Part shown: positions 7,514 through 56,116 of the stretch, piece after piece
Numbering within the stretch: the stretch's first letter is position 1
How the letters are laid out: every line of letters begins with the position of its first letter
NCBI GenBank assembly: GCA_964016885.1
Contig: OZ024759.1
Span: 10,664,001-10,728,000, forward strand
Origin: Eledone cirrhosa
Taxonomy: Eukaryota
DNA length: 64,000 bases
Direction: 5' to 3'
Position numbers and translations under genes: made by a program
The notes under the pieces: generated by a model
Seen by the model: the letters and a program-made list of their open reading frames with translations, nothing else
The model's database searches: none
Told to the model about the DNA's origin: nothing

Positions 7514-7997
7514 TGAGGCAGTGTCTCTGTGGCTGGATGCCCTTTCCGAAGGCAGTATCTCTGTGGTTGGATGCCCTTTCCGAAGGCAGTGTCTCTGTGG
7601 TTGGATGCCCTTTCCGAAGGCAGTGTCTCTGTGGCTGGATGCCCTTCCCGAAGGCAGTGTCTCTGTGGCTGGATGCCCTTCCCGAAGGCAGTGTCTCTGT
7701 GGCTGGATGCCCTTCCCGAAGGCAGTGTCTCTGTGGCTGGATGCCCTTCCCGAAGGCAGTGTCTCTGTGGCTGGATGCCCTTCCCGAAGGCAGTGTCTCT
7801 GTGGCTGGATGCCCTTCCCGAAGGCAGTGTCTCTGTGGCTGGATGCCCTTTCCGAAGGCAGTGTCTCTGTGGCTGGATGCCCTTCCCGAAGGCAGTGTCT
7901 CTGTGGCTGGATGCCCTTCCCGAAGGCAGTGTCTCTGTGGCTGGATGCCCTTCCCGAAGGCAGTGTCTCTGTGGCTGGATGCCCTTCCCGAAGGCAG
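7514..7997. repeat. 34-bp minisatellite, about 14 copies, in a SNRNP27 intron
   Basis: Unit gaaggcagtgtctctgtggctggatgcccttccc. Contains the SINE/RTE 3' UTR motif gctggatgcccttcc. Confidence 0.95.
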
Positions 7998-8419
7998 CGC
8001 ATACTTCATCTTCATCAACCTGGTTAGTTGTATGGACATAAACAAGTGTCACCACTTGTGTTGATATGAAGACACACACACTTAACTGTAATATAGAAAC
8101 TATGTAATCTAATAGCCGTGGCTTGATGCAGTCTGTCATCCTCATACCAGTAATTAAAGCAGGTAGGTTGTTTGGCTGAGAGGACTGGTGTGTGCTTTTG
8201 TGGGTAGAAGCCAAGAAACCTACATTGATGTGACACATGACAGGACTGGACCCTATCATTAAAATATCCAGGAAACCACCTACGAGATAAAACTTAAGTG
8301 GGAGCTGTAACAATAACATGATAGGATTGTGGCCCCTATCATTAAAATACCAAAGAAACCCCCTGTAAGATACCTCTTATGTGGGAGCTTCCTTTCATTT
8401 ATTTTTGTATCTTTTCCAG

Positions 8420-8481
8420 GAAAAACAAACAAGTAAAAAACCAATATACGTAGCAAACATTGTCCACAAAAGAAAATACAG
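8420..8481 (+). CDS. SNRNP27: SNRNP27 exon EKQTSKKPIYVANIVHKRKY(R)
   Basis: Acceptor cttttccAG and donor AG|GTGCGT. Phase 0 to 2. Carries the KRKYR motif. Confidence 0.92.
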
Positions 8482-9500
8482 GTGCGTACTTCTATATTTT
8501 TATTTTAAACATGTAGCACATTTCTTGGCCATGTCTCTTCCATCATCATCATACATCTGCTTTTCCTTGCTTGCAAGGATGACTTGAGCAATCTGAGGTC
8601 AGCTCTTACCACCTCTGCCTATGTTTTTCGTGGTCTTCCTTCTACCGGGATTTCTTGGCACTTTTTCACCCAGCAGTCATCCTCCATGCACATCACATGG
8701 CCAAACTAATGCAGTCTTCTCTCTCACACACAACAACTTATCCCGCTTATACATAGTTTCTCTCTCAACTCGTCCATACTTGGTCGTTCACGCACATTGA
8801 CATTGCACGTCCATCAGAGCATGCCTGCCTCATTTCTCTCCAGCCTTCGCAGTTGCTTATTCTTATTCTAAACATGTAGTGTATCTCCCCAAACGTGTGG
8901 ACATTTTGAGTTGCTAAATTTTGAAAAAGAAAGTCTTCCACGCAAAAAAAAAAATTCAGTAACTCTGTCGTAGATTTTTTATTCAAAATATATAATTCTT
9001 TCATGTAGAAAAATCTATTCTAGAAATGTAATTATCTCATGTAGTTTACATTCCTTTATTCTAAATAAGCAGGGGGAGTTCATGTGTATATATATATATA
9101 TATAGCTACATGTTGCCCTCATATAACATCTGAGGGCTAGGGGCTGGACATGTGTCAGTAACTGGATAACATTTACATAAACTGGTCGTGTAGGTCAGAG
9201 GTTGTGTTGGTGACATGACAAAAGGCATCCAGTCTGCACTAAAGTGGTTGTGTTGGTGACGTGTCAAAATAAAAAGCACCCAGTTCACTGTAAATGTGGC
9301 AGGACAACGAAGCCAGAAACAGTTCTGTATGAACAAGACAGAGTCATCTGACCTGGCTTGTCTCACAACTGGACAACTAGTCTAACCCATGCTAGCATGG
9401 ACGTTAAACAGTGATGACAACTTAACCTCATTAAATTACCATATAAAGTCCTTGTTATAGCAATACTGTTTATCAAAATCTTTTATTTTTTCCTCTACAG

Positions 9501-10431: not shown

Positions 10432-10650
10432 AACAGGGATACAGTGTACCTATTGTAAACCAAATATACACAGGGATACAGTGTACCTATTGTAAACTAG
10501 ATATACACAGGGATAGGGTGTACCTATTGTAAACCAGATATACACAGGGATACAGTGTACCTATTGTAAACCAGATATACACAGGGATACAGTGTACCTA
10601 TTGTAAACTAGATATACACAGGGATAGGGTGTACCTATTGTAAACTAAAT
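10432..10650. repeat. 37-bp minisatellite, left part
   Basis: Unit aaaccagatatacacagggatacagtgtacctattgt. Continues at 17335-17354 and 18528-20340. Confidence 0.9.
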
Positions 10651-12570
10651 ACAAATCTCAGAACTGCCACCGTCAATGTTGGTACCCTGAAATGCAGATC
10701 ATGTGAAATTGTGGAACTGTTAGAAGAGGATTAGATGTATGCTGTGTCCAAGAAGTGAGATTGAGTGGTGCCTCAGTGAGACTAATCACAGGAAAGCAAC
10801 TTAGATATAAATTCTACAGGATAGGAACTGGTGGAGAAATGGATAGATAAGGTGATAGAGGTAGTTAGAGTGACAGAATCATCAAGCTTAGATTAACTGT
10901 AGGAAATTGACTGGTGACAATTATATCTACCTATGCTCTACAGGCAAGACTGGGTAAAGAACAAAAGGACAGGTTCTATGAGGAACTTTTACAGACAACT
11001 TCAGGTATTGATGACAGAGACTTCTGTCAGTGTGAATTGAGATGTTGGAGAAAAATGTGTTAGAAATGACACTGGTGCTCTTAGCGACACTGATGCCCAA
11101 AAGAAAGAGGCCTGCAAATGTTACTATGAGAGATGAATTGTTTCAACTTTTGGCACAAGGCCAGTAAATTACCCAGTACATTACTGGTACTTTATTTTAT
11201 CGACCCCTGTAAGGATGAAAGGCAAAGTTAACCTCGGCGGGATTTGAACTCAGACTGTAAAGGGACGTAACTATGCTAGAAAGCATGGCGTCCAACCCTC
11301 TACCGATACTGCCAATTCACTGCCCTTAGAGATTAATGAATGGGAGGAAGGGAAACTACACCCAACTTACCCAAAGGAAGGACCAGCTATTGAAGTTGAT
11401 AGTTTTAGGGTCAAAGACACAATCAAGGACATGAGAAATGGTAAAGCTGCAGAGCCATCAGAGATAGTTACTGAAATGTTAGAAGAATCAGGAGAGGTAG
11501 GAGTCAAACTAGTAACAAGTATAGTAAATCAAGTAATACATGACAGTGTCATAACCAATGACTGGTGCAGCATTACCATCATAAGTTGTGTGACAAGGGC
11601 AAAGGTGATGCCCTAGAAAGGAGCAACTATAGAGGAATAAAATTAATGGACCAAGTTATAAAAGTGACAGAAAGAGTTATAGCACAGCTAATTAAGGAAA
11701 GAATCAAAATAGATGGGATGCAGTTTGGTTTCATGCCTGGGAAAAGTATGACAGATGCACTCTTTTTAGTGAGGCACCTACAATAGAAGTTCCTAGCTAA
11801 AAATAAACCACTATATTTAACCTTTGTTGATTTCGAAAATGTCTTTGACAGAGTACCCCAATCTATTATCTGGTGGTCCTTAAGGAAATTAGGGGCAGAA
11901 GAATGGCTTGTGAGAGCAGTTCAAGCTATGTACAGAGGAGCTGTCAGTAAAGTGAGAATAGGAAATGAGTTGAGCGAGGAATTCAAGGTTCAGTTCTTAG
12001 ACTATGTTTATCATAGTTCTTCAGGCCATGGGAACTTCTCTTTGCTGATGATTTGGTCCTCATAGCTGAAACCAAAAAAGAGCTAGAAAATATATTCCGA
12101 TTATGGAAACTTAATTTGGAATCAAAAGGTCAGAGAGTAAACTTACCCAGAACTAAAGTACTAGGGAGTAGGAGAGAAGATAGGGCCCAGATTCCCTCAG
12201 GGAAGTGGCCCTGTTCAATATGCAGAAAGAGAGTAGACAAACTCCATGCAATGTACACAAATCTTGGGTACACAAAATATGTAGTGGGAAAACTAGTAGA
12301 CTAACAGGAAGGGAGAACTTTGCTTGTAGAAGCTGCACAGAAGAAGACTGCCAATGTTATAAACCTTTCCCAGTCACTGGAAGGATCCACACATGTGGTT
12401 GATAGCTACTGCTATCGAGGTGATCTAATTAGCAGCAGAGGAGAATGATCTGAGAGTATAATAGCTAGACTAAGGATAGGAGGGAAGAAGTTTAGAGAAC
12501 TCTTCCCACTACTGACAACAAAAGGTTTCTCTCTATGTACTAAAGGAAGGCTCTATGACGCCTGTGTGTG

Positions 12571-13021
12571 GTGCATGGTAGTGAAACATGGTCTGTGACT
12601 GCAGAGGACATGTGGTGCTGCATGGTAGTGAAAAAAGGGCTGAGACTGCAGAGGACGAGTGGTGCTACATGGTAGTGAAACATGGGATGTTACTGCAGAG
12701 GACATGTGGTGCTACATGGTAGTGAAACGTGGGCTGCAACTGCAGAGGACATGTGGTGCTACATGGTAGTGAAACATGGGCTGCAACTGCAGAGGACATG
12801 TGGTGCTACATGGTAGTGAAACATGGGCTGTGACTGCAGAGGACGTGGTGCTACATGGTAGTGAAACATGGTCTGTGACAGCAGAGGACATGTGGTGCTA
12901 CATGGTAGTAAAACATGGTCTGTGACTGCAAAGGACATGTGGTGCTGCAAGGTAGTGAAACAGGGGCTGTGACTGCAGAGGACATGTGGTGCTACATGGT
13001 CTGTGACTGCAGAGGACATGT
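12571..13021. repeat. 47-bp tandem array, about 9-10 copies, amplified from RTE coding sequence
   Basis: Unit catggtagtgaaacatgggctgtgactgcagaggacatgtggtgcta equals the LHGSETWAVTAEDM segment. The LINE reads through on both sides. Confidence 0.9.
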
Positions 13022-13121
13022 GTAGACTAGAGAGAAATGAAGCAACCATGCTTCGTTGGATGTGCAATGTAAATACGAGAGAAAGGCAGAGATTGGATGA
13101 GCTGAGAAAGAAGCTGTTTAA

Positions 13122-16100
13122 CCCTTTAGCATTTACATTACTCTATATATACTATTGTATTGTCACAGTAAAGTCTTTACCTCACATAATATCTCGCATA
13201 ACATTTACATTACTCTATATATACTATTGTATTGTCACAGTAAAGTCTTTACCTCACATAACATTTACATTACTCTATATATACTATTGTATTGTCACAG
13301 TAAAGGCTTTACCTCACATTATATCTCACATAACATTTACATTACTCTATATATACTATTGTATTGTCACAGTAAAGTCTTTACCTCACATTATATCTCA
13401 CATAACATTTACATTACTCTATATATACTATTGTATTGTCACAGTAAAGTCTTTACCTCACATTATATCTCACATAACATTTACATTACTCTATATATAC
13501 TATTGTATTTTCACAGTAAAGTCTTTACCTCACATAATATCTCGCATAACATTTACATTACTCTATATATACTATTGTATTGTCACAGTAAAGGCTTTAC
13601 CTCACATAATATCTCACATAACATTTACATTACTCTATATATACTATTGTATTGTCACAGTAAAGTCTTTACCTCACATAATATCTCGCATAACATTTAC
13701 ATTACTCTATATATACTATTGTATTGTCACAGTAAAGGCTTTACCTCACATAATATCTCACATAACATTTACATTACTCTATATATACTATTGTATTGTC
13801 ACAGTAAAGGCTTTACCTCACATAATATCTCACATAACATTTACATTACTCTATATATACTATTGTATTGTCACAGTAAAGGCTTTACTTCACATAATAT
13901 CTCACATAACATTTACATTACTCTATATATACTATTGTATTGTCACAGTAAAGGCTTTACCTCACATAATATCTCACATAACATTTACATTACTCTATAT
14001 ATACTATTGTATTGTCACAGTAAAGGCTTTACCTCATATAATATCTCACATAACATTTACATTACTCTATATATACTATTGTATTGTCACAGTAAAGGCT
14101 TTACCTCACATAATATTTCACATAACATTTACATTACTCTATATATACTATTGTATTGTCACAGTAAAGGCTTTACCTCATATAATATCTCACATAACAT
14201 TTACATTACTCTATATATACTATTGTATTTTCACAGTAAAGGCTTTACCTCCCATAATATCTCACATAACATTTACATTACTCTATAAATACTATTGTAT
14301 TTTCACAGTAAAGGCTTTACCTCACATAATATCTCACATAACATTTACATTACTCTATATATACTATTGTATTTTCACAGTAAAGGCTTTACCTCACATA
14401 ATACCTCATATAACATTTACATTACTCTATATATACTATTGTATTTTCACAGTAAAGGCTTTACCTCACATAATATCTCACATAACATTTACATTACTCT
14501 ATATATACTATTGTATTGTCACAGGAAAGGCTTTACCTCACATAATATCTCATATAACATTTACATTACTCTATAAATACTATTGTATTTTCACAGTAAA
14601 GGCTTTACCTCACATAATATCTCACATAACATTTACATTACTCTATATATACTATTGTATTTTCACAGTAAAGGCTTTACCTCCCATAATATCTCACATA
14701 ACATTTACATTACTCTATAAATACTATTGTATTTTCACAGTAAAGGCTTTACCTCACATAACATTTACATTACTCTATATATACTATTGTATTTTCTCAG
14801 TAAAGGCTTTACCTCACATAATACCTCATATAACATTTACATTACTCTATATATACTATTGTATTTTCACAGTAAAGGCTTTACCTCACATAACATTTAC
14901 ATTACTCTATATATACTATTGTATTGTCACAGTAAAGGCTTTACCTCACATAACATTTACATTACTCTATATATACTATTGTATTTTCACAGTAAAGACT
15001 TTACCTCACATAACATTTACATTACTCTATATATACTATTGTACTGTCACAGTAAAGGCTTTACCTCACATAACATTTACATTACTCTATATATACTATT
15101 GTATTTTCACAGTAAAGGCTTTACCTCACATAACATTTATATTACTCTATATATACTATTGTATTGTCACAGTAAAGACTTTACCTCACATAATATCTCA
15201 CATAACATTTACATTACTCTATATATACTATTGTATTTTCACAGTAAAGGCTTTACCTCACATAATATCTCACATAACATTTATATTACTCTATATATAC
15301 TATTGTATTGTCACAGTAAAGGCTTTACCTCACATAACATTTACATTACTCTATATATCATCATCATCATCATCATCATCATTTTACGTCCGCTTTTCCC
15401 TGCTTGCAAGGGTGGGACGGGTCTTATTCAGCACAGCATCTCTCCACTCGTCACGGTCCCTTGTCATCTCCACCGTGAGCTTCAATGATCTGAGGTCTGT
15501 TCTCACCACCTCCGCCCATGTTTTTCGTGGTCTACCTCTACCACGTCTTCCTTCAACTGGCATTTCCTGGCACTTCTTCACCCATCGGTCATCCTCTATG
15601 CGCATCACATGTCCATACCACCTCAGTCTCCTCTCCCGTACACTACATTCTATCCCTCTCAGACACAGTTTCTCTCTCAACACATTTATGCTGGGTCGTT
15701 CACGCACATTTACACTGCACATCCAACGGAGCATGCTTGCCTCATTTCTCTCCAGCCGTCGCATATCTTCTGCGGTAGCTGCCCATGTCTCACTACCATG
15801 CAGCATCGCGCTCCTCACACAGGCATCATACAACCGGCCTTTCGTACGCAGGGAGAAACCCTTCTTCGTCAACAGAGGAAGCAGCTCCCTAAACTTCTTC
15901 CAACCCGTCCTTATTCTAGATACTATGGCCTCTATATATACTATTGTATTTTCACAGTAAAGACTTTACCTCACATAACATTTACATTACTCTATATATA
16001 CTATTGTATTGTCACAGTAAAGGCTTTACCTCACATAACATTTACATTACTCTATATATACTATTGTATTTTCACAGTAAAGGCTTTACCTCACATAACA

Positions 16101-17086
16101 TTTATATTACTCTATATATACTATTGTATTGTCACAGTAAAGACTTTACCTCACATAATATCTCACATAACATTTACATTACTCTATATATACTATTGTA
16201 TTTTCACAGTAAAGGCTTTACCTCACATAATATCTCACATAACATTTATATTACTCTATATATACTATTGTATTGTCACAGTAAAGGCTTTACCTCACAT
16301 AATATCTCGCATAACATTTACATTACTCTATATATACTATTGTATTGTCACAGTAAAGACTTTACCTCACATAATATCTCACATAACATTTACATTACTC
16401 TATATATACTATTGTATTGTCACAGTAAAGGCTTTACCTGACATATCTCACATAACATTTACATTACTCTATATATACTATTGTATTTTCACAGTAAAGG
16501 CTTTACCTCACATAACATTTACATTACTCTATATATACTATTGTATTTTCTCAGTAAAGGCTTTACCTCACATAATATCTCACATAACATTTACATTACT
16601 CTATATATACTATTGTATTGTCACAGTAAAGGCTTTACCTCATATAATATCTCACATAACATTTACATTACTCTATATATACTATTGTATTGTCACAGTA
16701 AAGGCTTTACCTCACATAATATCTCGCATAACATTTACATTACTCTATATATACTATTGTATTTTCACAGTATAGGCTTTACCTCATATAATATCTCACA
16801 TGACATTTACATTACTCTATATATACTATTGTATTTTCACAGTATAGGCTTTACCTCACATAATATCTCACATGACATTTACATTACTCTATATATACTA
16901 TTATATTTTTGTGGTAAAGGCTTTATTTTACATAATTATCTCACAATACTGAATCTATGAGATTTTTATGTCATTTATTTTGAGAAAAATACCTTAACCT
17001 CAGTATGAGGGGTCAGGTACAGCCGGTCTGAACAGAAAGAGATGAGAGAATTCTGGCCGGAGATGGCCGGTTTAAATGCCAAAGGG
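13122..17086 (+). mobile_element. piggyBac-like TTAA MITE with about 3.2 kb of 60/72-bp satellite
   Basis: TTAA at 13118-13121 and 17087-17090. 14-bp TIR CCCTTT(A/G)GCATTTA. The empty site is visible in a paralogous LINE at 36061-36085 (aagctgtgtttaaggggaatcc). Confidence 0.9.
15359..15929 (-). mobile_element. 5'-truncated RTE-A LINE inserted in the satellite
   Basis: Open C-terminal ORF (KGRLYDACVRSAMLHGSETW...RWYGHVMR...GRGRPRKTW...SREKRT*), (GAT)n tail, 10-bp TSD ctctatatat (15349-15358 / 15930-15939). Confidence 0.92.
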
Positions 17087-17355
17087 TTAAGGGGAATCCA
17101 AGATAGTGTGCCGGAGAGAAGACTGTGTTGGTATGGACATATGAGGTGCATGGACAAGGACCGATGGGTGAAGAAATGCTAGGAAATCCCAGTGGAAGGA
17201 AGCTGCAGTGAAAGACTTGAGCAGAGGAGATGACGAAGGAATGCAACAAGTGGAGAGATGCCGTGCTGAGAAGGACCTGTCCAACCCATGCAAGCATGGA
17301 AAAGTGGATGTAAAAATGATGATGCTGATGATTATACACACAGGGATACAGTGTC

Positions 17356-18527: not shown

Positions 18528-20340
18528 GTAAACCAGATATACACAGGGATACAGTGTACCTATTGTAAACCAGGTACACAGGGATACAGTGTACCTATTG
18601 TAAACCTGATATACACAGGGATACAGTGTACCTATTGTAAACCAGATATACACAGGGATACAGTGTACCTATTGTAAACCAGATATACACAGGGATACAG
18701 TGTACCTATTGTAAACCTGATATACACAGGGATACAGTGTACCTATTGTAAACCAGACATACACAGGGATACAGTCTACCTATTGTAAACCAGATATATA
18801 CAGGGATACAGTGTACCTATTGTAAACCTGATATACACAGGGATACAGTGTACCTATTGTAAACCTGATATACACAGGGATACAGTGTACCTATTGTAAA
18901 CCAGACATACACAGGGATACAGTCTACCTATTGTAAACCAGATATATACAGGGATACAGTGTACCTATTGTAAACCTGATATACACAGGGATACAGTGTA
19001 CCTATTGTAAACCAGATATACACAGGGATACAGTGTACCTATTGTAAACCAGATATACACAGGGATACAGTGTACCTATTGTAAACCAGATATACACAGG
19101 GATACAGTGTACCTATTGTAAACCTGATATACACAGGGATACAGTGTACCTATTGTAAACCAGATATACACAGGGATACAGTGTACCTATTGTAAACCAG
19201 ATATACACAGGGATACAGTGTACCTATTGTAAACCAGATATTCACAGGGATACAGTGTACCTATTGTTAACCTGATATACACAGGGATACAGTGTACCTA
19301 TTGTAAACCAGATATACACAGGGATAGTGTACCTATTGTAAACCTGATATACACAGGGATAGTGTACCTATTGCAAACCTGATATACACAGGGATACAGT
19401 GTACCTATTGTAAACCAGATATATACAAGGATACAGTGTACCTATTGTAAACCAGATATACACAGGGATACAGTGTACCTATTGTAAACCAGATTTACAC
19501 AGGGATACAGTGTACCTATTGTAAACCAGATATACACAGGGATACAGTGTACCTATTGTAAACCAGATATACACAGGGATACAGTATACCTATTGTAAAC
19601 CAGATATACACAGGGATACAGTGTACCTATTGTAAACCTGATATACACAGGGATACAGTCTACCTATTGTAAACCAGATATATACAGGGATACAGTGTAC
19701 CTATTGTAAACCTGATATACACAGGGATACAGTGTACCTATTGTAAACCAGATTTACACAGGGATACAGTGTACCTATTGTAAACCAGATATACACAGGG
19801 ATACGGTGTACCTATTGTAAACCTGATATACACAGGGATACAGTGTACCTATTGTAAACCAGATATACACAGGGATACAGTGTACCTATTGTAAACCTGA
19901 TATATACAGGGATACAGTGTACCTATTGTAAACCAGATATATACAGGGATACAGTGTACCTATTGTAAAGTAGATATACACAGGGATACAGTGTACCTAT
20001 TGTAAAGTAGATATACACAGGGATACAGTGTACCTATTGTAAACCAGATATACACAGGGATACAGTGTACCTATTGTAAATCTGATATACAGAGGGATAC
20101 AGTGTACCTATTGTAAACCAGATATACACAGGGATACAGCGTACCTATTGTAAACCAGATATACACAGGGATACAGTGTACCTATTGTAAACCAGATATA
20201 CACAGGGATACAGCGTACCTATTGTAAACTATACACAGGGATACAGTGTACCTATTGTAAACCAGATAGACACAGGGATACAGCGTACCTATTGTAAACT
20301 AGACACAGGGATACAGTGTACCTATTGTAAACTAGACACA
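18528..20340. repeat. 37-bp minisatellite, about 49 copies
   Basis: Highly homogeneous unit aaaccagatatacacagggatacagtgtacctattgt. Confidence 0.97.
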
Positions 20341-20559: not shown

Positions 20560-20601
<42 letters not shown>

Positions 20602-20847
20602 CACATGTATATACACATCATCATCGTTTAACATCCATCCATCTTCCACGCGAGCATCACACACATATATATATATATACATACATACATACACACACAT
20701 ATATATATACACATCATCATCGTTTAACATCCATCCATCTTCCACGCGAGCATCACACACATATATATATATATACATACATACATACACACACATATAT
20801 ATACACATCATCATCGTTTAACATCCATCCATCTTCCACGCGAGCAT

Positions 20848-20879
<32 letters not shown>

Positions 20880-21090: not shown

Positions 21091-21700
21091 CATAATTTTA
21101 CGTCCGCTTTTCCCTTCTTGTAAGGGTGGGATGGGTCTTATTCAGCACAGCATCTCTCCACTTGTCACAGTCCTTCGTCATCTCCACCGTGAGCTTCAGC
21201 GATCTGAGGTCTGTTCTCACCACCTCCGCCCATGTTTTTCGTGGTCTACCTCTACCACGTCTTCCTTCAACTGGCATTTCTTGGCACTTCTTCACCCATC
21301 GGTCATCCTCCATGCGCATCACATGTCCATACCATCTCAGTCTCCTCTCCCGTACACTACACTCTATCCCTCTCAGACACAGTTTCTCTCTCAACACATC
21401 ACATGTCCATACCACCTCAGTCTCCTCTCCCGTACACTACATTCTATCCCTCTCAGACACAGTTTCTCTCTCAACACATTTATGCTGGGTCGTTCACGCA
21501 CATTGACATTGCACATCCAATGGAGCATGCTTGCCTCATTTCTCTCCAGCCGTCGCATATCCTCTGCAGTTGCTGCCCATGTCTCACTACCATGCAGCAT
21601 CGCGCTCCTCACACAGGCATCATATAACCGGCCTTTCGTACGCAGGGAGAAACCCTTCTTCCAGCCCGTCCTTATTCTAGATACTATGGCTTCAGAACAC
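21090..21700 (-). mobile_element. RTE-A LINE 3' fragment with an internal tandem duplication of about 80 bp
   Basis: Close match to 15359-15929. The LREKLCLRGIECSVRERRLRWYGHVM segment is duplicated. Confidence 0.85.
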
Positions 21701-26579: not shown

Positions 26580-26793
26580 CTGTAAAAATAGAATTTAAGC
26601 ATGAAAGAAAACAGTAAAAAATTCAATAAAAATGCCAACATGTTTGTGAAACAAATCTTTAATCCCCTCCTCTAACATTGCTTCCCTCAGGAAGGACCCT
26701 TCAGTTTGTACCAAAAGATGAGTCTCTCCTCTACATCTAGGAGGACTCTTTTGGCTTCTGCCAACGTCTACTGTACACTTCATAGAACATTAA

Positions 26794-37695: not shown

Positions 37696-37767
37696 CTGAA
37701 AGTAAAAAAAAAACAGAAAAAGAATTAGTACAAATAAAATTTAGAACTTCATCACTACATATACTAT

Positions 37768-39604: not shown

Positions 39605-40318
39605 CCCTTTAGTGTTCAAACCAGCCAGAATTCTCTACCTTTTTCTGTTGAAACTGGCTGTAACTGGTCACTCAAACTGATGTTAAGGTATTGTTCTCAA
39701 AATAAATACTTTCATAATTTCATAGATTCGATATTATGTGAGATAATTATGTGAGGTAAAGCATTTACCATGAAAATATAATAGTATATATAGAATAATG
39801 TAAATGTTATGTGAGATATTATGTGAGGTAAAGCCTTTACTGTGAAAATACAATAGTATATATAGAATAATGTAAATGTTATGTGAGATATTATGTGAGG
39901 TAAAGCCTTTACTGTGAAAATACAATAGTATATATAGAATAATGTAAATGTTATGTGAGATATTATGTGAGGTAAAGCCTTTACTGTGAAAATATAATAG
40001 TATATATAGAGTAATGTAAATGTTATGTGAGATTTTATGTGAGGTAAAGCCTTTACTGTGACAATATAATAGTAACTATAGAGTAATGTAAATGTTATGT
40101 GAGATATTATGTGAGGTAAAGCATTTACCATGAAAATACAATAGTATATATAGAGTAATGTAAATGTTATGTGAGATATTATGTGAGGTAAAGCCTTTAC
40201 TGTGAAAATATAATAGTATATATAGAGTAATGTAAATGTTATGTGAGATATTATGTGAGGTAAAGCCTTTACTGTGAAAATATAATAGTATATATAGAGT
40301 AATGTGAATGCTAAAGGG
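39605..40318 (-). mobile_element. piggyBac-like TTAA MITE with satellite array
   Basis: TTAA|CCCTTTAG...TAAAGGG|TTAA. Further single-unit or partial copies at 40431-40625 and 40927-41120. Confidence 0.88.
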
Positions 40319-40643
40319 TTAAACCCATTCATTACCAAAGAAACATACTGTTTCAATTAATTAATGCAGAAGTTTGAAAGATTTACTAAAATTTATTACT
40401 AAGATAGTAAATTAACATATGGTTCTTATATTTAACCCTTTTCCATTTACATTATATTTACTATTAAATTTTCACAGTAAAGACTTTACGTCACATAATA
40501 TTGAATCTATGAGATTTTGATATTTATTTAGAGAACAATACCTTAACATCAGTATGAGTGGCCAGTTATGGCCGGTTTGAAGTGAATGGGGTGAAAGAAT
40601 TCTGGCCAGATACAGTTGGTTTAAATAGGAATCCTTTAAAATA

Positions 40644-40812: not shown

Positions 40813-41579
40813 TAGGTGATTTTGTCTCATTGGACCAGAGCTGATTTTGTTTGGGTTGGTTTCAAAAGGGTTAATGAAGAATTTTGAGGGATTTACTAAA
40901 ATTATTTTATTACTAAGATAATAACTTAACCTTTTAATGTTCAAACCGGCCAAAATCGGCCAGAATTCTCTACCTTTTTCTGTTGAAACTGGCTGTAACC
41001 GGTCACTCAAACTGATGTTAAGGTATTGTTCTCAAAATAAATACTTTCAAAATCTCATAGATTCGATATTATGTGAGGTAAAGCCTTTACCATGAAAATA
41101 TAATAGTATATATAGAGTAATGGGAAAGTTTTATGTAAATTTATGTTGAAAGAATATTTTAAAAATAGGAACCCTTTAAAATAGGTGGTTTTGTTGCATA
41201 GAAACTGAGCTTGGTTTTGGCAAGGTTAGTATCAAAAGGGTTAAATCAGAACCCTTTAAAATGTGGTTTTGGATGCGTTATCAAAAGGGTTGAATAACAA
41301 CTTAATCGTCACAGAAGTGTCAAAATATATTACTTATATTGTGGTATAAGTTGGACCTTCGACAGTTCTGATGCCAAAAAGGTTCCAGTTGTTTGATTAA
41401 ATGAACAATCCACTTGTGAAATTAACATGCAAGTGACTGAGCATACCACAAACACATGTACCCTGGGCTCTTTGAATTACAGGTACAAATTATTTTTACC
41501 AGCTGAGAGGACTGGAGCAACATGAAATAAAGTGCCTTGCTCAAGGACACAGTGTACCTCAGGGAATAGAACTAACCAA

Positions 41580-43346: not shown

Positions 43347-43728
43347 GTTGTAGGCAGGTTTTCTATCCCCCAAGGAATGGAACAATATGTAGAACAACTT
43401 ATCTTGTTAAGTCAACGGTTCTCTGAAGAAGAAGAAAAAAAGGAAAATGTTACAGCAATTGATGTCACCCCCCTGCTTCTCATGAATACTAAAGCAAACA
43501 TCAAACAACTCTTGAAAGCTGCTTCTTTGCCCACTTATTTCTGAGAGGGTCGTGGGGACTGAGTCCTCAAACACCCCCTCCAGCAGGCCCTGTTTGAAGC
43601 AATCGTCTCCAACTGATCCAGCTGGATCGTCAAGCAAGACCTGTCAAGCTTATGGATTTTATCCATCTCGCTCGGCGTCTACCTCTGGGTCTCCTACCTG
43701 TTGGTTTTGCCCATCGATTCTTTCCCCC

Positions 43729-46700
43729 GAGACATTCTAACCACATGCCTGTAGTATCAGAGCTGTGATCTCTCAATTTAGAGAAGTAGTGGCTCTACTG
43801 GGAATGACTCTCTGATCTCTGAGCTACGCAGTCTTTCCTGAGACATTCTAACCACATGTCCATAATATCAGAGCTGTGATCTCTCAATTTAGAGAAGTAG
43901 TGGCTCTACTGGGAGTGACTCTCTGATCTACGCAGTCTTTCCTGAGACATTCTAACCACATGTCCATAATATCAGAGCTGTGATCTCTCAATTTAGAGAA
44001 GTAGTGGCTCTACTGGGAGTGACTCTCTGATCTCTGAGCTACGCAGTCTTTCCTGAGACATTCTAACCACATGCCAATAATATCAGAGCTGTGATCTCTC
44101 AATTTAAAGAAGTAGCGGCTCTACTGGGAGTGACTCTCTGAGCTACGCAGTCTTTCCTGAGACATTCTAACCACATGCCTGTAGTATCAGAGCTGTGATC
44201 TCTCAATTTAGAGAAGTAGTGGCTCTACTGGGAGTGACTCTCTGATCTCTGAGCTACGCAGTCTTTCCTGAGACATTCTAACCACATGCCCATAGTATCA
44301 GAGCTGTGATCTCTCAATTTAGAGAAGTAGCGGCTCTACTGGGAGTAACTCTGATCTCTGAGCTACGCAGTCTTTCCTGAGACATTCTAACCACATGCCC
44401 ATAGTATCAGAGCTGTGATCTCTCAATTTAGAGAAGTAGCGGCTCTACTGGGAATGACTCTCTGATCTCTGAGCTACGCAGTCTTTCCTGAGACATTCTA
44501 ACCACATGCCCATAGTATCAGAGCTGTGATCTCTCAATTTAGAGAAGTAGCGGCTCTACTGGGAATGACTCTCTGATCTCTGAGCTACGCAGTCTTTCCT
44601 GAGACATTCTAACCACATGCCAATAATATCAGAGCTGTGATCTCTCAATTTTGAGAAGTAGCGGCTCTACTGGGAGTGACTCTCTGAGCTACGCAGTCTT
44701 TCCTGAGACATTCTAACCACATGCCCATAGTATCAGAGCTGTGATCTCTCAATTTAGAGAAGTAGCGGCTCTACTGGGAGTAACTCTCTGATCTCTGAGC
44801 TACGCAGTCTTTCCTGAGACATTCTAACCACATGCCTGTAGTATCAGAGCTGTGATCTCTCAATTTAGAGAAGTAGCGGCTCTACTGGGAGTGACTCTCT
44901 GATCTCTGAGCTACGCAGTCTTTCCTGAGACATTCTAACCACATGCCCATAGTATCAGAGCTGTGATCTCTCAATTTAGAGAAGTAGCGGCTCTACTGGG
45001 AATGACTCTCTGATCTCTGAGCTACGCAGTCTTTCCTGAGACATTCTAACCACATGCCCATAGTATCAGAGCTGTGATCTCTCAATTTAGAGAAGTAGTG
45101 GCTCTACTGGGAATGACTCTCTGATCTCTGAGCTACGCAGTCTTTCCTGAGACATTCTAACCACATGCCCATAGTATCAGAGCTGTGATCTCTCAATTTT
45201 GAGAAGTAGCGGCTCTACTGGGAGTGACTCTCTGAGCTACGCAGTCTTTCCTGAGACATTCTAACCACATGCCCATAGTATCAGAGCTGTGATCTCTCAA
45301 TTTAGAGAAGTAGCGGCTCTACTGGGAGTAACTCTCTGATCTCTGAGCTACGCAGTCTTTCCTGAGACATTCTAACCACATGCCTGTAGTATCAGAGCTG
45401 TGATCTCTCAATTTAGAGAAGTAGCGGCTCTACTGGGAGTGACTCTCTGATCTCTGAGCTACGCAGTCTTTCCTGAGACATTCTAACCACATGCCCATAG
45501 TATCAGAGCTGTGATCTCTCAATTTAGAGAAGTAGTGGCTCTACTGGGAATGACTCTCTGATCTCTGAGCTACGCAGTCTTTCCTGAGACATTCTAACCA
45601 CATGCCCATAGTATCAGAGCTGTGATCTCTCAATTTTGAGAAGTAGCGGCTCTACTGGGAGTGACTCTCTGAGCTACGCAGTCTTTCCTGAGACATTCTA
45701 ACCACATGCCCATAGTATCAGAGCTGTGATCTCTCAATTTAGAGAAGTAGCGGCTCTACTGGGAGTAACTCTGATCTCTGAGCTACGCAGTCTTTCCTGA
45801 GACATTCTAACCACATGCCCATAGTATCAGAGCTGTGATCTCTCAATTTAGAGAAGTAGCGGCTCTACTGGGAATGACTCTCTGATCTCTGAGCTACGCA
45901 GTCTTTCCTGAGACATTCTAACCACATGCCCATAGTATCAGAGCTGTGATCTCTCAATTTAGAGAAGTAGCGGCTCTACTGGGAATGACTCTCTGATCTC
46001 TGAGCTACGCAGTCTTTCCTGAGACATTCTAACCACATGCCAATAATATCAGAGCTGTGATCTCTCAATTTTGAGAAGTAGCGGCTCTACTGGGAGTGAC
46101 TCTCTGAGCTACGCAGTCTTTCCTGAGACATTCTAACCACATGCCCATAGTATCAGAGCTGTGATCTCTCAATTTAGAGAAGTAGCGGCTCTACTGGGAG
46201 TAACTCTCTGATCTCTGAGCTACGCAGTCTTTCCTGAGACATTCTAACCACATGCCTGTAGTATCAGAGCTGTGATCTCTCAATTTAGAGAAGTAGCGGC
46301 TCTACTGGGAGTGACTCTCTGATCTCTGAGCTACGCAGTCTTTCCTGAGACATTCTAACCACATGCCCATAGTATCAGAGCTGTGATCTCTCAATTTAGA
46401 GAAGTAGCGGCTCTACTGGGAATGACTCTCTGATCTCTGAGCTACGCAGTCTTTCCTGAGACATTCTAACCACATGCCCATAGTATCAGAGCTGTGATCT
46501 CTCAATTTAGAGAAGTAGTGGCTCTACTGGGAATGACTCTCTGATCTCTGAGCTACGCAGTCTTTCCTGAGACATTCTAACCACATGCCCATAGTATCAG
46601 AGCTGTGATCTCTCAATTTTGAGAAGTAGCGGCTCTACTGGGAGTGACTCTCTGAGCTACGCAGTCTTTCCTGAGACATTCTAACCACATGCCCATAGTA

Positions 46701-47217
46701 TCAGAGCTGTGATCTCTCAATTTAGAGAAGTAGCGGCTCTACTGGGAGTAACTCTCTGATCTCTGAGCTACGCAGTCTTTCCTGAGACATTCTAACCACA
46801 TGCCTGTAGTATCAGAGCTGTGATCTCTCAATTTAGAGAAGTAGCGGCTCTACTGGGAGTGACTCTCTGATCTCTGAGCTACGCAGTCTTTCCTGAGACA
46901 TTCTAACCACATGCCCATAGTATCAGAGCTGTGATCTCTCAATTTAGAGAAGTAGCGGCTCTACTGGGAATGACTCTCTGATCTCTGAGCTACGCAGTCT
47001 TTCCTGAGACATTCTAACCACATGCCCATAGTATCAGAGCTGTGATCTCTCAATTTAGAGAAGTAGTGGCTCTACTGGGAATGACTCTCTGATCTCTGAG
47101 CTACGCAGTCTTTCCTGAGACATTCTAACCACATGCCCATAGTATCAGAGCTGTGATCTCTCAATTTGGAGAAGTAGCAGCTCTACCTGGAGTGACTCTC
47201 TGATCTCTGAGCTACGC
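43729..47217. repeat. 111-bp satellite, about 32 copies, amplified inside a Rex3-like LINE remnant
   Basis: Unit gagacattctaaccacatgcccatag...ctgagctacgcagtctttcct. The flanks 43520-43728 and 47218-47255 continue the same LINE as 25190-25600. Confidence 0.95.
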
Positions 47218-47386
47218 ACATTATCGAGTAACATTAATCCAAAGACCCTTGAAAGAGGTTTATGAATTTTAAATTTAAGTCTAATTTCAAAGAGAATAGA
47301 CCAGAATATTTTTCTCAGAGTTCCCTATAACCTGACAAAGGGAATTTTAAGTCCCGAAATACTAGGACAAAAAAAAAAAAAGATAC

Positions 47387-48042: not shown

Positions 48043-49868
48043 TTTAATTCTTTAACATTTACATTACTCTATATATACTATTGTATTGTCACAGTAAATG
48101 CTTTACCTCACATAATATCTCACATAACATTTACATTACTCTATATATACTATTGTATTGTCACAGTAAAGGCTTTACCTCACATAATATCTCACATAAC
48201 ATTTACATTACTCTATATATACTATTGTATTTTCACAGTAAAGGCTTTACCTCACATAATATCTCACATAACATTTACATTACTCTATATATACTGTTGT
48301 ATTGTCACAGTAAAGGCTTTACCTCACATAACATTTACATTACTCTATATATACTATTGTATTTTCACAGTAAAGGCTTTACCTCACATAATATCTCACA
48401 TAACATTTACATTACTCTATATATACTGTTGTATTGTCACAGTAAAGACTTTACCTCACATAATATCTCACATAACATTTACATTACTCTATATATACTA
48501 TTGTATTTTTACAGTAAAGACTTTACCTCACATAATATCTCACATGACATTTACATTACTCTATATATACTATTGTATTGTCACAGTAAAGGCTTTACCT
48601 CACATAATATCTCACATAACATTTACATTACTCTATATATACTATTGTATTGTCACAGTAAAGGCTTTACCTCACATAATATCTCACATAACATTTACAT
48701 TACTCTATATATACTGTCGTATTGTCACAGTAAAGGCTTTACCTCACATAATATCTCACATAACATTTACATTACTCTATATATACTATTGTATTGTCAC
48801 AGTAAAGGCTTTACCTCACATAATATCTCACATAACATTTACATTACTCTATATATACTATTGTATTGTCACAGTAAAGGCTTTACCTCACAATATCTCA
48901 CATAACATTTACATTACTCTATATATACTGTCGTATTGTCACAGTAAAGGCTTTACCTCACATAACATTTACATTACTCTATATATACTATTGTATTGTC
49001 ACAGTAAAGGCTTTACCTCACATAATATCTCACATAACATTTACATTACTCTATATATACTGTCGTATTGTCACAGTAAAGGCTTTACCTCACATAATAT
49101 CTCACATAACATTTACATTACTCTATATATACTATTGTATTGTCACAGTAAAGGCTTTACCTCACATAATATCTCACATAACATTTACATTACTCTATAT
49201 ATACTGTCGTATTGTCACAGTAAAGGCTTTACCTCACATAATATCTCACATAACATTTACATTACTCTATATATACTATTGTATTGTCACAGTAAAGGCT
49301 TTACCTCACATAATATCTCACATAACATTTACATTACTCTATATATACTATTGTATTGTCACAGTAAAGGCTTTACCTCACATAATATCTCACATAACAT
49401 TTACATTACTCTATATATACTGTCGTATTGTCACAGTAAAGGCTTTACCTCACATAATATCTCACATAACATTTACATTACTCTATATATACTATTGTAT
49501 TGTCACAGTAAAGGCTTTACCTCACATAATATCTCACATAACATTTACATTACTCTATATATACTATTGTATTGTCACAGTAAAGGCTTTACCTCACATA
49601 ATATCTCACATAACATTTACATTACTCTATATATACTATTGTATTGTCACAGTAAAGGCTTTACCTCACATAATATCTCACATAACATTTACATTACTCT
49701 ATATATACTATTGTATTGTCACAGTAAAGACTTTACCTCACATAATATCTCACATAACATTTACATTACTCTATATATACTGTTGTATTGTCACAGTAAA
49801 GGCTTTACCTCACATAATATCTCATAACATTTACATTACTCTATATATACTATTGTATTTTCACAGTA
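48043..49868 (+). repeat. 60/72-bp MITE satellite array, about 25 units, right end missing
   Basis: Same unit as 13122-17086. Degenerate left end ttaattctttaacatttac. Confidence 0.9.
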
Positions 49869-49997
49869 ATGATGGAATGTTTTTAGATAAATACAAAGTT
49901 TTTTACCATAGAACCAGTGATGGTTGGAACATAACTTAACAAAGGCTCTTATATAAAAATATGATGGAGGGTTTTTAGATAAATATAAACACTTTAA

Positions 49998-50215
49998 CCC
50001 TTTAGCATTTACATTACTCTATATTTATGATTGTATTTTCATGGTAAAGGCTTATCTTACACAATTATTTCATATAATATCGAATCTGGGATTTTGATAT
50101 TAATTATTTTGAGAACAATACCTTAACATTAGTATGAGTGGTCAGTTACAGCTGATTTGAACAGAAAAAGGTGAGAGAATTCTGGCCGGATACGGCCGGT
50201 TTGAATACTAAAGGG
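49998..50215 (+). mobile_element. Minimal single-unit TTAA MITE, 218 bp
   Basis: TTAA|ccctttagcatttac...gaatactaaaggg|TTAA with one copy of the satellite unit. Confidence 0.88.
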
Positions 50216-50711
50216 TTAAAACAAACAGTTTTATGTCATAGAAGCAGGGGTGTTTGGAACATAACTTAACAGAGGTTCTCATATAAAATTATGATGGAAG
50301 GTATCTAGATAAATCATTATGATCACAATATGATTGATAATCAACATCGACTTAGAAGGAATGGTTGCTTGTTAGTGAAATTTTTTTTTTTAAAAAAGGT
50401 AAATATTTATTATAACAGCTGTCTCCTAGGTAATGGGAGTTATGGAGTTCTCTGGAGGGGAAGGGGACTACAGAAATACCAGTAATTTGTGGCAGTTTTG
50501 AAGACCAGATTCATTCAAAACAAAAAAATCGTAGAACAAAAGAATAAATTTCTACTAAAATTCTAACCAAACCTAAAATTGGCTTGGTCAGTGGGTTGTA
50601 TGTGTATTACTATTACTCTGCCATTACTATTTGGACACATGCTTTTCTCGGAATATCAGGTTACAGAGAAATATGTTCTGTTGGAGTCATGCTTAAAATT
50701 CTATAAAAATA

Positions 50712-54427: not shown

Positions 54428-54916
54428 TAAATTCCGACCTCACACACTTACACCTCTCCAAGACAATGTCACTGGACCGAGACCTTTGGCGGTACTCAGT
54501 AATAGAGAAGACCCGCCTTACCTAAATACAAAGTAAAACCTACTACAGTCAGTAGGCATCTCTAACAAAATACACCCCCGTCCCACCACCCCCACCCCAT
54601 CCAAACCGCCCCCTTCTATGTAAAGTTATGTTGGTGCCACAAAATCCAGGCCGAAACAAATGAGATCGTGTAGGTGTCACGACAAAAAACACACAGTCCA
54701 CGCTGTAATGTGACCGTGTAGGCAACACGGTAAAAACCTCCCAGCCCCACACTGTAAATGTGGTTGGTGTTAGGAAGGGCATCCAACTGTAGAAAACCTG
54801 CCAGACACTCCTATGCGAGCAAGACAACCACTCTTGCCTCAAGTGGGAAAACTCCCGTCCAAACCCATGCAAGCGTGGAATATGGACGTTAAACGATGAT
54901 GATGATGATGATGATG
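52710..54916 (+). mobile_element. RTE-B LINE insertion including 3' UTR and (GAT)n tail
   Basis: RT ORF followed by a roughly 370-bp UTR shared with other copies and the tail ggacgttaaacgatgatgatg. Confidence 0.93.
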
Positions 54917-55006
54917 AATCAAAATATATATTTTATTATACATATTTCAAAGGTACAATGGTGTTTAAGTATGTTGTCATCAGACAAACTATATGATGTC
55001 ACATAT

Positions 55007-56116
55007 ATAATAATAATAATGAAATTATTGTGTAAAGTGCTCAGGTGCACTACAACTAGTCATCGAATAATACATAGAATAATACACAAATGTCAGGGAA
55101 GTGAATAGTGTATGAGTCATGGTATACATGTGTGTATGTGTATGGAGGGGGAACATTAGCTGTAGTGTTCGCGGATCTCAGGAAGCATGGAGGCCTTAAA
55201 GGATGCAGTGTCTCGACAGCTAACAACTGATGCAGGTAGTTTGTTCCATGGAGGCCTTAAAGGATGCAGTGTCTCGACAGCTAACAACTGATGCAGGTAG
55301 TTTGTTCCATGGAGGCCTTAAAGGATGCAGAGTCTCGACAGCTAACAACTGGTGCAGGTAGTTTGTTCCATGGAGGCCTTAAAGGATGCAGTGTCTCGAC
55401 AGCTAACAACTGATGCAGGTAGTTTGTTCCATGGAGGCCTTAAAGGATGCAGAGTCTCGACAGCTAACAACTGGTGCAGGTAGTTTGTTCCATGGAGGCC
55501 TTAAAGGATGCAGTGTCTCGACAGCTAACAACTGATGCAGGTAGTTTGTTCCATGGAGGCCTTAAAGGATGCAGTGTCTCGACAGCTAACAACTGATGCA
55601 GGTAGTTTGTTCCATGGAGGCCTTAAAGGATGCAGTGTCTCGACAGCTAACAACTGATGCAGGTAGTTTGTTCCATGGAGGCCTTAAAGGATGCAGAGTC
55701 TCGACAGCTAACAACTGGTGCAGGTAGTTTGTTCCATGGAGGCCTTAAAGGATGCAGAGTCTCGACAGCTAACAACTGATGCAGGTAGTTTGTTCCATGC
55801 TTCAGCAACTCTGAGCGTGAAAAAATGTTTCCGAAAGTCATGGGAACTGTGCTGTTTTCTGACTTTGTGGGCATGTCCACGTGTGTTAGACACATGGAAA
55901 TCAAAAAGGTACTCAGGGTTGTTGTTGGCAACATGGTTAACAATTTTGTGGGTGTTTACCAAGTTAGCTGCCAGGCGTCGGAGCTTCAATGTATCCATGC
56001 CCAGGGAAGCAAGGCGCTCAGAGTATGGTAGATGCCTGATGGAGGGTATTCGCTTGGTTGCACGTCTCTGAACAGTTTCCAGGCGGTCAATGTTCTGAGC
56101 AAGATAGGGGTTCCAT
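55007..56116 (-). mobile_element. 5'-truncated CR1-like LINE with an internal 61-bp array
   Basis: IWNPYL..NIDRLETVQRRATK...YSERL..LG...TRGH..K...RKHFFTLRVAEAWNKLP..VV...SFK. (ATT)n tail. 11-bp TSD atgtcacatat (54996-55006 / 56117-56127). Confidence 0.9.
55187..55799. repeat. 61-bp tandem array, about 10 copies
   Basis: Unit catggaggccttaaaggatgcagtgtctcgacagctaacaactgatgcaggtagtttgttc equals the WNKLPASVVSCRDTASFKASM segment. Bounded by CATG microhomology. Confidence 0.95.

What the first reader, a model, noticed from the sequence alone, without database searches (positions are those of the whole stretch)
7514..55799. Transposon-to-satellite conversion seen repeatedly: at least seven arrays, each an amplified slice of a different TE
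Seen, with the parent element continuing on both sides: 47-bp array from RTE ORF LHGSETW (12571), 62-bp array from the mariner HTH region (29997), 111-bp array from a Rex3-like ORF (43729), 61-bp array from a CR1 ORF end (55187). Seen, origin by motif match only: 34-bp (SINE/RTE UTR motif, 7514), 48-bp (TTAA element terminus, 23438), 35-bp (second TTAA element subterminus, 37768). Early 2-3 copy stages also occur (20600, 21310, 29110, 32530, 58830). Some junctions sit on short microhomologies (CATG, GTATCA, TTTCCT). Established: single satellites born from TEs are known. Inference: this density across both class I and class II parents points to a general, sequence-independent local amplification process (microhomology-seeded duplication, then slippage or unequal exchange) rather than a property of one TE family.
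Basis: partly seen in the sequence, partly recalled or inferred. Interest (0 to 1): 0.8.

Follow-up and report, generated by a model that had tools for sequence, protein, structure and literature searches.

The report
Minisatellite-dense introns grown from dead transposons
About a third of this animal DNA window is short tandem arrays, most of them repeated slices of dead jumping genes, which likely arose by ordinary copying slips between short matching sequences rather than by any special transposon trick, while the commonest array here likely spreads between copies of one small transposon.

Summary
All seven arrays are real in the sequence (9-35 units, 0.45-3.5 kb): minisatellites, not satellites. 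Four sit in register inside their parent element. The 34-, 35- and 48-bp units match TE ends, with the parent incomplete. For the mariner array, contigs of public runs show a more than tenfold depth excess at the junction and sibling copies with one unit, against both refutation tests. Junction arms of 4-7 bp occur in 4 of 7 readable events (chance 2.4% each), but TTTCCT is not an arm and the mariner junction has none. Arrays grew in multi-unit blocks. TE origin is not enriched: at least 55-65% of the background is TE, and a 37-bp array has no TE parent in the window. Old copies carry units identical to young copies', so these units likely moved between loci. The route is known (Haber-Louis microhomology duplication; human TE-derived minisatellites). 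The scan has already reported this pattern on other pieces of this genome. Only the density (32% of the window) is unusual.

The parts
7465..7515 (+). decayed SINE/LINE 3'-tail sequence leading into the 34-bp array
   Evidence: local alignment to 1044-1134, 0 of 300 shuffles with the unit, 0 of 500 for the flank alone (1 of 5 targets)
7516..7997 (+). 34-bp array, 14 units plus 6-bp arm AGGCAG; lies in an intron between SNRNP27-like exons
   Evidence: PF08648 on exons near 7342-7422 and 9502-9552
10433..10645 (+). 37-bp array, left piece; no TE parent found in the window
10650..13115 (+). decayed RT-encoding LINE (RTE-like label recalled), 5' part; host of the 47-bp array
   Evidence: tblastn with the window's RVT_1 ORF
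12574..13024 (+). 47-bp array from the LHGSETW-coding stretch, 9.6 units, arm TGTG (needs a 3-bp loss in the left flank)
13116..17090 (-). TTAA-bounded MITE inserted in the LINE, with 47 cores of the 72/60-bp array, itself split by a LINE piece at 15357-15925
17091..17333 (+). 3' end of the same LINE, resuming after the MITE
   Evidence: tblastn 17087-17304
17335..17354 (+). remnant of a 37-bp unit between two LINE insertions
   Evidence: (95% over 21 bp)
18528..20336 (+). 37-bp array, right piece, 49 units
20600..20860 (+). 96-bp triplication bounded by CA/TA microsatellite
21317..21479 (+). 80-bp duplication in a LINE copy, arm CAT; single-copy sibling at 15603-15682 has both arms
23439..24660 (-). 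48-bp array of a TTAA-element terminus, 25 units with 5-unit blocks; parent body absent, left edge on a 10-bp palindrome fused to a 72-bp-MITE remnant
25188..25536 (-). unamplified sibling of the 111-bp array's LINE
29110..29453 (+). 112-bp triplication in a LINE 3' UTR, arm ACAGTCC present at both ends in single-copy siblings 5955 and 51790
29561..29991 (-). mariner element, downstream part (transposase to aa 149, internal deletion, TIR)
29992..32092 (-). 62-bp array from the HTH-coding region, 34 units, no junction arm (2 extra bases)
32093..32325 (-). mariner element, 5' part and TIR
32521..32707 (+). 49-bp x3.8 in a SINE; siblings carry 1 or 2 units
37766..38984 (+). 35-bp array from the subterminus of a TTAA element, 35 units
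   Evidence: relative at about 40820-40875 has two imperfect 10-bp direct repeats 35 bp apart
43523..43720 (-). LINE 3' part flanking the 111-bp array
43721..47218 (-). 111-bp array, 32 units, 13 distinct, with a 1,290-bp exact block repeated at offset 1,420; no arm readable
47219..47250 (-). about 30 bp of parent LINE up to where the match to the sibling ends
55004..55185 (-). 3' UTR of the LINE that hosts the 61-bp array (CR1 label recalled, no Pfam hit)
55186..55799 (-). 61-bp array at the ORF end, 10 units plus arm CATG; the two arms also form a 10-bp inverted repeat
55800..56172 (-). ORF of the same LINE running into the array
58866..59150 (+). 102-bp triplication spanning a CA/TA microsatellite and a SINE piece
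3030..4000 (+). TTAA MITE with 13 cores of the 72/60-bp array (young head)
6800..7200 (+). TTAA MITE, diverged head, own first unit 11% from its interior units
26790..27986 (+). TTAA MITE with 15 cores (young head)
33450..34155 (-). 72-bp array, 10 cores, MITE ends lost
39601..40323 (+). TTAA MITE with 8 cores (young head)
40430..40626 (-). single-unit MITE sibling
40926..41146 (+). single-unit MITE sibling, young head
48043..49869 (-). 72-bp array, 26 cores
49993..50219 (-). single-unit MITE sibling

Best explanation
These are minisatellites sitting inside dead transposon copies, likely born in place by a host DNA-copying slip that doubled a 34-112-bp stretch, often between 3-7-bp matching arms, and likely lengthened afterwards by slips or unequal exchange that copy several units at once. 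Shown: the arrays, their register with four parents, single-unit siblings, excess arms, multi-unit blocks. Inferred: step 1, replication slippage or microhomology-mediated repair makes the first doublet (blunt or 1-2-base-filled junctions in the 62- and 111-bp cases point to end-joining as a second seed); step 2, the doublet expands by out-of-register exchange, leaving diverged edge units; step 3, where the parent is high-copy (the 72-bp MITE), array units pass to other copies by non-allelic recombination or gene conversion. Transposons supply the raw material mainly because they are most of the DNA here.
For: Arms of 4 bp or more in 4 of 7 events with both flanks readable and 3 bp or more in 5 of 7, against 2.4% and 6.7% for random 30-120-bp duplications (P about 1e-5; 2.7e-4 without the 47-bp case). 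Both arms pre-exist in unamplified siblings of the 112- and 80-bp cases. Mariner siblings run straight through with one unit and carry the family base G at 29985 where this locus has T: 2 contigs in X1, 2 in X2, 6 reads in X6, a second sample. Junction bins have summed word depth 1,543-3,745 against 114-137 on the element body, and two listed contigs bridge a unit junction with 31 or more letters on each side. Unit strings show repeated 2-, 5- and 9-13-unit blocks and distinct terminal units. Class I and class II parents and a 37-bp array without a TE parent behave alike. Background TE share is 20,200 of 37,000 bp by in-window matches, about 65% with six stretches that I called by eye. 72-bp family: heads of two old copies differ by 15-20% from each other and from the young array-bearing heads, their own first units differ 11-16% from their interiors, yet interiors match other loci at 2-5% with identical units.
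Against: 2 of the 4 in-register arrays (62, 111) have no arm; the 47-bp arm needs an assumed 3-bp loss; 35 and 48 could not be scored. The 34-bp arm could be a target-site duplication of an inserted array, since no right-hand parent was found. No genome was held, so whether the 47-, 111-, 61-, 34-, 35- or 48-bp junctions recur at other loci is untested; scan notes report such recurrence for other LINE motifs in this genome. A 62-bp unit variant seen in contigs of X1-X3 is absent from the window: another allele or another array. X1-X3 are one sample and may be the assembly's source. Indels of 7 bp or more between sibling TE copies showed arms of 3 bp or more in only 7 of 21 rows, several of them misaligned: inconclusive.
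Confidence: 0.7

Rival explanations
1. Some of the seven arrays were not born here. A junction made once elsewhere was brought in by gene conversion or template switching between homologous TE copies, or moved with the element, and then grew.
For: Supported in this window for the omitted 72-bp family. The 49-bp dimer is shared by 3 of 7 sibling SINEs. A 62-bp variant in contigs is missing from the window, and junction depth is high. The 48-bp array has no parent body. Rsp-like spread in Drosophila is a published parallel (PMC7403614, abstract and section 11).
Against: No second array of the 34, 47, 48, 62, 35, 111 or 61-bp unit in the window. Five in-window LINE relatives of the 47-bp stretch and the siblings of the 111- and 61-bp parents carry one unit. 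Mariner siblings carry one unit.
Confidence: 0.2
2. The arrays are made during transposition, by reverse-transcriptase template jumps or by repair of transposase breaks, so they are a property of the TEs.
For: The 111-bp array lies about 30 bp from the end of its element's match. The 80-bp doublet (2 differences in 80) is about as diverged as its host from its sibling (3.9%). Ahmed and Liang report more repeats in younger TE families (PMC3389668, section 3.1).
Against: It would need separate mechanisms for LINEs, a mariner and MITEs. Shared variants in multi-unit blocks need later rounds. The 37-bp array has no TE parent in the window and appears to predate two LINE insertions. No TE enrichment over background.
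Confidence: 0.06
3. Assembly artefact: short duplications inflated by the assembler.
For: Long exact blocks (1,290 bp in the 111-bp array, 645 bp in the 62-bp array). No listed contig spans an array. The 61- and 34-bp arrays have only 3 and 4 distinct units.
Against: 9-19 distinct units in five of the seven arrays, with variants shared in patterns. More than tenfold depth excess and bridging contigs at the 62-bp junction in read-derived contigs.
Confidence: 0.04

Closest known systems
Microhomology-mediated tandem duplication (Haber-Louis model; Wei et al. 2026, PMC13167724; abstract, sections 10 and 17 read)
   Same: Single-copy segment between short arms is doubled and may expand; arms of 3 bp or more exceed chance.
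   Different: There, expansion beyond 2-3 copies is rare (131 of 9,149 yeast loci); here 7 births in 64 kb reach 9-35 units, and 2 of 7 readable junctions have no arm.
TE-derived minisatellites of the human genome (Ahmed and Liang 2012, PMC3389668; abstract and all of Results read)
   Same: Arrays from slices of many TE classes, mostly single-locus, expanded in place; some flanked by short direct repeats; some family hotspots propagated by transposition.
   Different: Human: 7,276 arrays, about 0.32% of the genome, Alu-derived ones about 2.3-2.4 units on average, 300 with 5-20-bp flanking repeats. Here 32% of one window (a chosen window against a genome mean, with other filters, so not a like-for-like ratio).
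MITE-borne tandem repeats of Xenopus (Xstir in Xmix, miDNA4), seen only through passages of review PMC9659126
   Same: 72-bp array inside a non-autonomous inverted-repeat element with variable unit number and single-unit siblings.
   Different: Here old copies keep their own diverged first unit beside imported-looking units, which points to exchange between loci as well as carriage by transposition.
Rsp-like spread into 1.688 clusters, Drosophila (Sproul et al. 2020, PMC7403614; abstract and section 11 read)
   Same: Repeat units spread between homologous dispersed sites by microhomology-mediated repair, then expand by unequal exchange.
   Different: The landing sites here are MITE copies, not an older satellite; eccDNA untested.
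Scattered satellitome of Crassostrea gigas (PMC8268682; abstract only)
   Same: Mollusc-type genome (if the octopus label holds) with short dispersed arrays tied to mobile elements.
   Different: There the arrays are mostly Helitron central repeats moved with the element; here most are one-off slices of LINE or mariner coding DNA.

Membership tests
TE-derived minisatellite | Tandem array with 10-100+ bp unit, array length under a few kb | tested here: met
   units 34-111 bp, arrays 0.45-3.5 kb
TE-derived minisatellite | Unit is a slice of a TE with the parent continuing in register | tested here: met
   met on both sides for 47, 62, 111 and 61 bp; one side or terminus match only for 34, 35, 48 bp
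TE-derived minisatellite | Single-locus array (siblings unamplified) | tested here: inconclusive
   in-window siblings and mariner contigs show one unit; genome not held
Microhomology-mediated tandem duplication | Direct-repeat arms at both ends above chance | tested here: met
   4 of 7 with 4 bp or more, null 2.4%; not met individually for 62 and 111 bp
Microhomology-mediated tandem duplication | Arms pre-exist in the single-copy state | tested here: met
   112-bp (2 of 4 siblings exact) and 80-bp (1 close sibling) cases; not checkable for 34, 47, 61
Microhomology-mediated tandem duplication | 1x/2x/nx alleles segregate at the locus; dependence on flap processing (Rad27/FEN1) | not testable with these tools
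   RAD runs barely cover the mariner locus
Classical satellite DNA | Long (tens of kb to Mb) heterochromatic arrays | tested here: not met
   longest array 3.5 kb; the 34-bp array is in an intron of an SNRNP27-like gene
MITE-borne tandem repeat (72-bp family) | Array between intact termini with TTAA sites, siblings with variable unit number | tested here: met
   five array copies with head and tail, three single-unit siblings; host LINE resumes across TTAA at 13116/17090
MITE-borne tandem repeat (72-bp family) | Array inherited once along the element's tree | tested here: not met
   head tree needs 3 changes, at least 2 forced by the one supported branch; units alike across 15-20%-diverged heads
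piggyBac superfamily (for the TTAA MITEs) | Autonomous partner with piggyBac transposase sharing the termini | not tested
   only TTAA and CCC..GGG ends seen; label recalled
mariner (Tc1/mariner) | HTH_48 transposase N-terminus, TIRs | tested here: met
   PF17906 on both sides; 74% to a 339-aa transposase with PF01359; TIRs at both ends; catalytic part deleted
   RVT_1 and PHD on one RTE-like ORF; no Pfam hit for the CR1-like ORF end; the Rex3-like piece was not scanned

The most novel reading that the evidence does not exclude
This lineage has a strongly raised rate of tandem duplication and expansion in gene-bearing DNA, enough to turn a third of some regions into minisatellite, and its arrays are contagious: once born in a high-copy TE they are copied into old, immobile siblings by ectopic conversion. 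That would be an undescribed driver of intron and genome growth in octopods and a natural system for measuring minisatellite birth and spread.
Probability: 0.25. Interest if true: 0.6.

Novelty: new member of a known kind. Interest (0 to 1): 0.3.

Why it matters
The route from a TE slice to a tandem array is published, so the window adds examples, not a principle. Its value is as a clean record: parents, single-unit siblings, arms and block structure are all readable, so rates and breakpoints of minisatellite birth could be measured. If the density and the copy-to-copy spread hold genome-wide, tandem amplification, and not only transposition, would be a main source of repeat DNA in this lineage. 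One cephalopod repeat survey that I checked discards simple and unknown repeats and does not mention tandem, minisatellite or satellite repeats in its main text (PMC8967140, term search).

Tried and rejected
Whole-genome test of junction recurrence: no genome held. TTTCCT as microhomology: rejected, absent from the right flank. TE enrichment: not significant in 7 of 8 settings. Hairpin-forming arms as a general trigger: a 10-bp inverted repeat in 1 of 9 cases (61 bp), 4-6 bp in the rest; rejected as general. Microhomology at indels between TE siblings: 7 of 21 rows, partly misaligned; inconclusive. Reads laid on 28380-30115 were swamped by the high-copy LINE, so the 112-bp junction could not be read. 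RAD reads showed no depth on the inner 62-bp units, which is no evidence in a reduced library; no joints were listed. Depth was not converted to copy number. The 37-bp array as a LINE 5' UTR repeat: rejected, the two neighbouring LINEs face opposite ways, and a unit remnant at 17335-17354 fits one array split by insertions. Scan look-ups by place near and by sequence found nothing relevant. Paper searches showed no listing on minisatellite density or TE-derived arrays in an octopus genome; I saw listings only (20 of 24: 2 of 2: 25 of 278: 15 of 30), and subscription papers and supplements are not covered. The octopus label comes from scan notes and my recall of SINE motifs; no call of mine tested it (runs are coded 'organism A').
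Full report
Setting. The window is repeat-rich animal DNA with exons of an SNRNP27-like gene (PF08648 hits on two of three exon pieces scanned). No whole genome is held. The octopus label comes from scan notes and my recall of the SINE motifs; no call of mine tested it. Arrays with period 25 or more and 4 or more copies cover 20,220 of 64,000 bp, micro- and low-complexity repeat 6,780 bp, leaving 37,000 bp.

Observation. All seven arrays are at the stated places: 34 bp x14, 47 bp x9.6, 48 bp x25, 62 bp x34, 35 bp x35, 111 bp x32, 61 bp x10, together 9,587 bp. At 0.45-3.5 kb they are minisatellites. The 62-bp array is the cleanest case. HTH_48 hits lie on both sides, a 339-aa mariner transposase (P0001) aligns with aa 1-53 on one side and aa 20-149 on the other, short hits inside the array all fall in aa 19-43, and both TIRs are present. 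The 47-bp array interrupts an RT-LINE that aligns up to 12568, again from 13003, and, past a MITE insertion, at 17087-17304. The 111-bp array has an unamplified sibling at 25188-25536, but only about 30 bp of parent lie on its right. The 61-bp array sits at an ORF end with a single-unit sibling at 575-853. The clade names RTE, Rex3 and CR1 were not tested. The 34-bp unit with its left flank aligns to a SINE/LINE tail (0 of 300 shuffles for the best of 10 targets), the 48-bp unit to a TTAA terminus at 960-1010 (0 of 1000) and the 35-bp unit more weakly to one at about 40820-40875 (8 of 1000).

Junctions. Seven events have both flanks readable: 34 (AGGCAG, 6 bp), 61 (CATG, 4), 112 (ACAGTCC, 7), 80 (CAT, 3), 47 (TGTG, 4, if a 3-bp loss in the left flank is allowed), 62 (none; two extra bases) and 111 (none). 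Left out: 35 and 48 (flanks lost or diverged), 49 (family-level dimer), 96 and 102 (bounded by microsatellite), 37 (split). Random 30-120-bp duplications in the same DNA give arms of 4 bp or more in 2.4% and 3 bp or more in 6.7%, so 4 of 7 and 5 of 7 have P about 1e-5; without the 47-bp case 3 of 6 gives 2.7e-4. For the 112- and 80-bp events both arms stand in single-copy siblings. Indels between sibling TE copies gave no clear signal (7 of 21 rows).

Growth. Unit strings show repeated blocks: 5-unit blocks in the 48- and 62-bp arrays, dimers in the 35-bp array, and a 13-unit repeat in the 111-bp array with 1,290 identical bases at offset 1,420. Terminal units are distinct, and the last 111-bp unit keeps bases that match the sibling. 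Growth in multi-unit steps after the first doubling is inferred from this. Slippage and unequal exchange cannot be told apart here.

Three runs of one sample (X1-X3, possibly the assembly's source) and RAD runs of other samples were found. On 31909-32325, the mariner body has flat summed depth 114-137 from one contig 6 letters in 216 away from this copy; junction bins reach 1,543-3,745; two listed contigs bridge a unit junction with 31 or more letters on each side. The tool warns that this depth is no copy number, but it argues against a 1-2-unit original. Loose ends at the start of the last unit run straight into the downstream transposase sequence with the family base G where this locus has T (29985): 2 contigs in X1, 2 in X2, 6 reads in X6. 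So sibling mariners carry one unit. Against a simple picture: a unit variant in X1-X3 contigs is absent from the window, so another allele or array exists. Only this array was tested so; the larger lay was swamped by a high-copy LINE.

Is it about transposons? In-window matches alone cover 20,200 of the 37,000 background bases (55%), about 65% with six further stretches that I called as TE by eye. Of ten monomer families, 7-8 are TE-derived: P 0.10-0.51, or 0.04-0.12 for 8 of 9 if the CA/TA-built block at 41600-43315 is dropped. The 37-bp family has no TE parent in the window and reads as one array split by two LINE insertions (10433-10645, 17335-17354, 18528-20336). TEs are therefore likely the substrate by abundance. 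This supports 'sequence-independent' and removes the force of 'transposon-to-satellite conversion'.

The largest family (8,445 bp, 123 cores) is a 72/60-bp array inside a TTAA-bounded MITE, in seven copies or remnants, beside three single-unit siblings. A tree of eight heads needs three changes of the array label, at least two forced by the one supported branch, with no clustering beyond shuffles. Two copies (6800, 17090) have heads 15-20% from each other and from the three young array-bearing heads and keep a first unit 11% and 16% from their own interiors, while those interiors lie 2-5% from arrays elsewhere and include identical units. Their arrays did not grow from the resident unit. Either conversion in place or a chimeric master copy explains this; eight heads cannot decide. 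I ran this test after reading scan notes on 'contagious' arrays.

Comparison. Birth between short arms is the Haber-Louis model, generalised in PMC13167724 (abstract, sections 10 and 17 read). TE-derived minisatellites of all classes, expanded in place, make up 23% of human minisatellites in PMC3389668 (abstract and Results read). A review lists arrays from LINE ORFs, CR1, SINEs and MITEs (PMC9659126, 12 passages). Spread between homologous sites is shown for Rsp-like (PMC7403614, abstract and section 11). Scattered element-linked arrays are known in oyster (PMC8268682, abstract). Four searches (listings only) showed nothing on this in octopus; supplements and subscription papers were not seen. 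The scan itself has noted the same pattern on other pieces of this genome; those notes are unchecked and are not counted as support.

Verdict. Observation confirmed with corrections, interpretation partly supported. New members of a known kind; interest 0.3. The open question worth money is whether the density and the copy-to-copy spread are genome-wide and lineage-specific.

Noticed in passing
window 1-110, 7342-7422, 8420-8481, 9502-9556 (+): Exons of an SNRNP27-like gene: RS-rich repeat exon at the window start, PF08648 hits on two later exons. Introns are filled with TEs and arrays.
   Followed up: partly
window about 47380-47415 and 39075-39140 (-): Apparent exons of a second gene on the minus strand (seen by eye: ATG-led short exon with GT donor; acidic exon with AG/GT ends); the 111-bp array would then be intronic. 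Not identified.
   Followed up: no
window 10433-20336: Nested history: a 37-bp array split by a LINE, which holds the 47-bp array and a TTAA MITE whose 72-bp array is split by another LINE piece; a second LINE (17355-18527, -) is inserted in the next 37-bp unit.
   Followed up: partly
window 52700-54424 (+): 575-aa LINE ORF stretch with RVT_1 and a PHD-finger-like insert after the RT (Pfam E 2e-5), preceded by a GA x50 run.
   Followed up: partly
window 23429-23449: The left edge of the 48-bp array is a perfect 10-bp inverted repeat with a 1-base loop, fused to a remnant of the 72-bp MITE: possibly a fold-back template switch.
   Followed up: no
window 55182-55191 and 55794-55803: The two CATG arms of the 61-bp unit are also a 10-bp inverted repeat, which could bring them together on a single strand; 1 of 9 cases.
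   Followed up: partly
window 34156-35605 and 50720-51290: Two stretches with similar ends (ACTAGC..CCCGG-like start, CACACAGAC..TTTTATATA end) recalled as Helitron/Helentron-type elements; not tested.
   Followed up: no
window 41600-43315: 1.7-kb composite array built from TA/CA microsatellite and a short ACCACCCT motif with 33- and 116-bp periods.
   Followed up: no
window 1042-1381, 2249-2725, 5217-5565, 32336-32903, 36735-37095, 37213-37573, 52191-52570, 59808-60060: Abundant SINE whose 3' end matches the LINE tail at 15366-15421; copies carry 1, 2 or 4 units of an internal 49-bp repeat.
   Followed up: partly
window 1516-2135 and 58280-58897: A 620-bp segment present twice in opposite orientation at 95% identity; unclassified element.
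   Followed up: no
window 60049-64000: About 4 kb dominated by TA/CA microsatellite (GC 0.19-0.26).
   Followed up: no
window 29561-32325; proteins P0002-P0018: The mariner's closest named relatives (63-72% identity) are amphipod (Trinorchestia) transposases; possible horizontal transfer, not examined.
   Followed up: no
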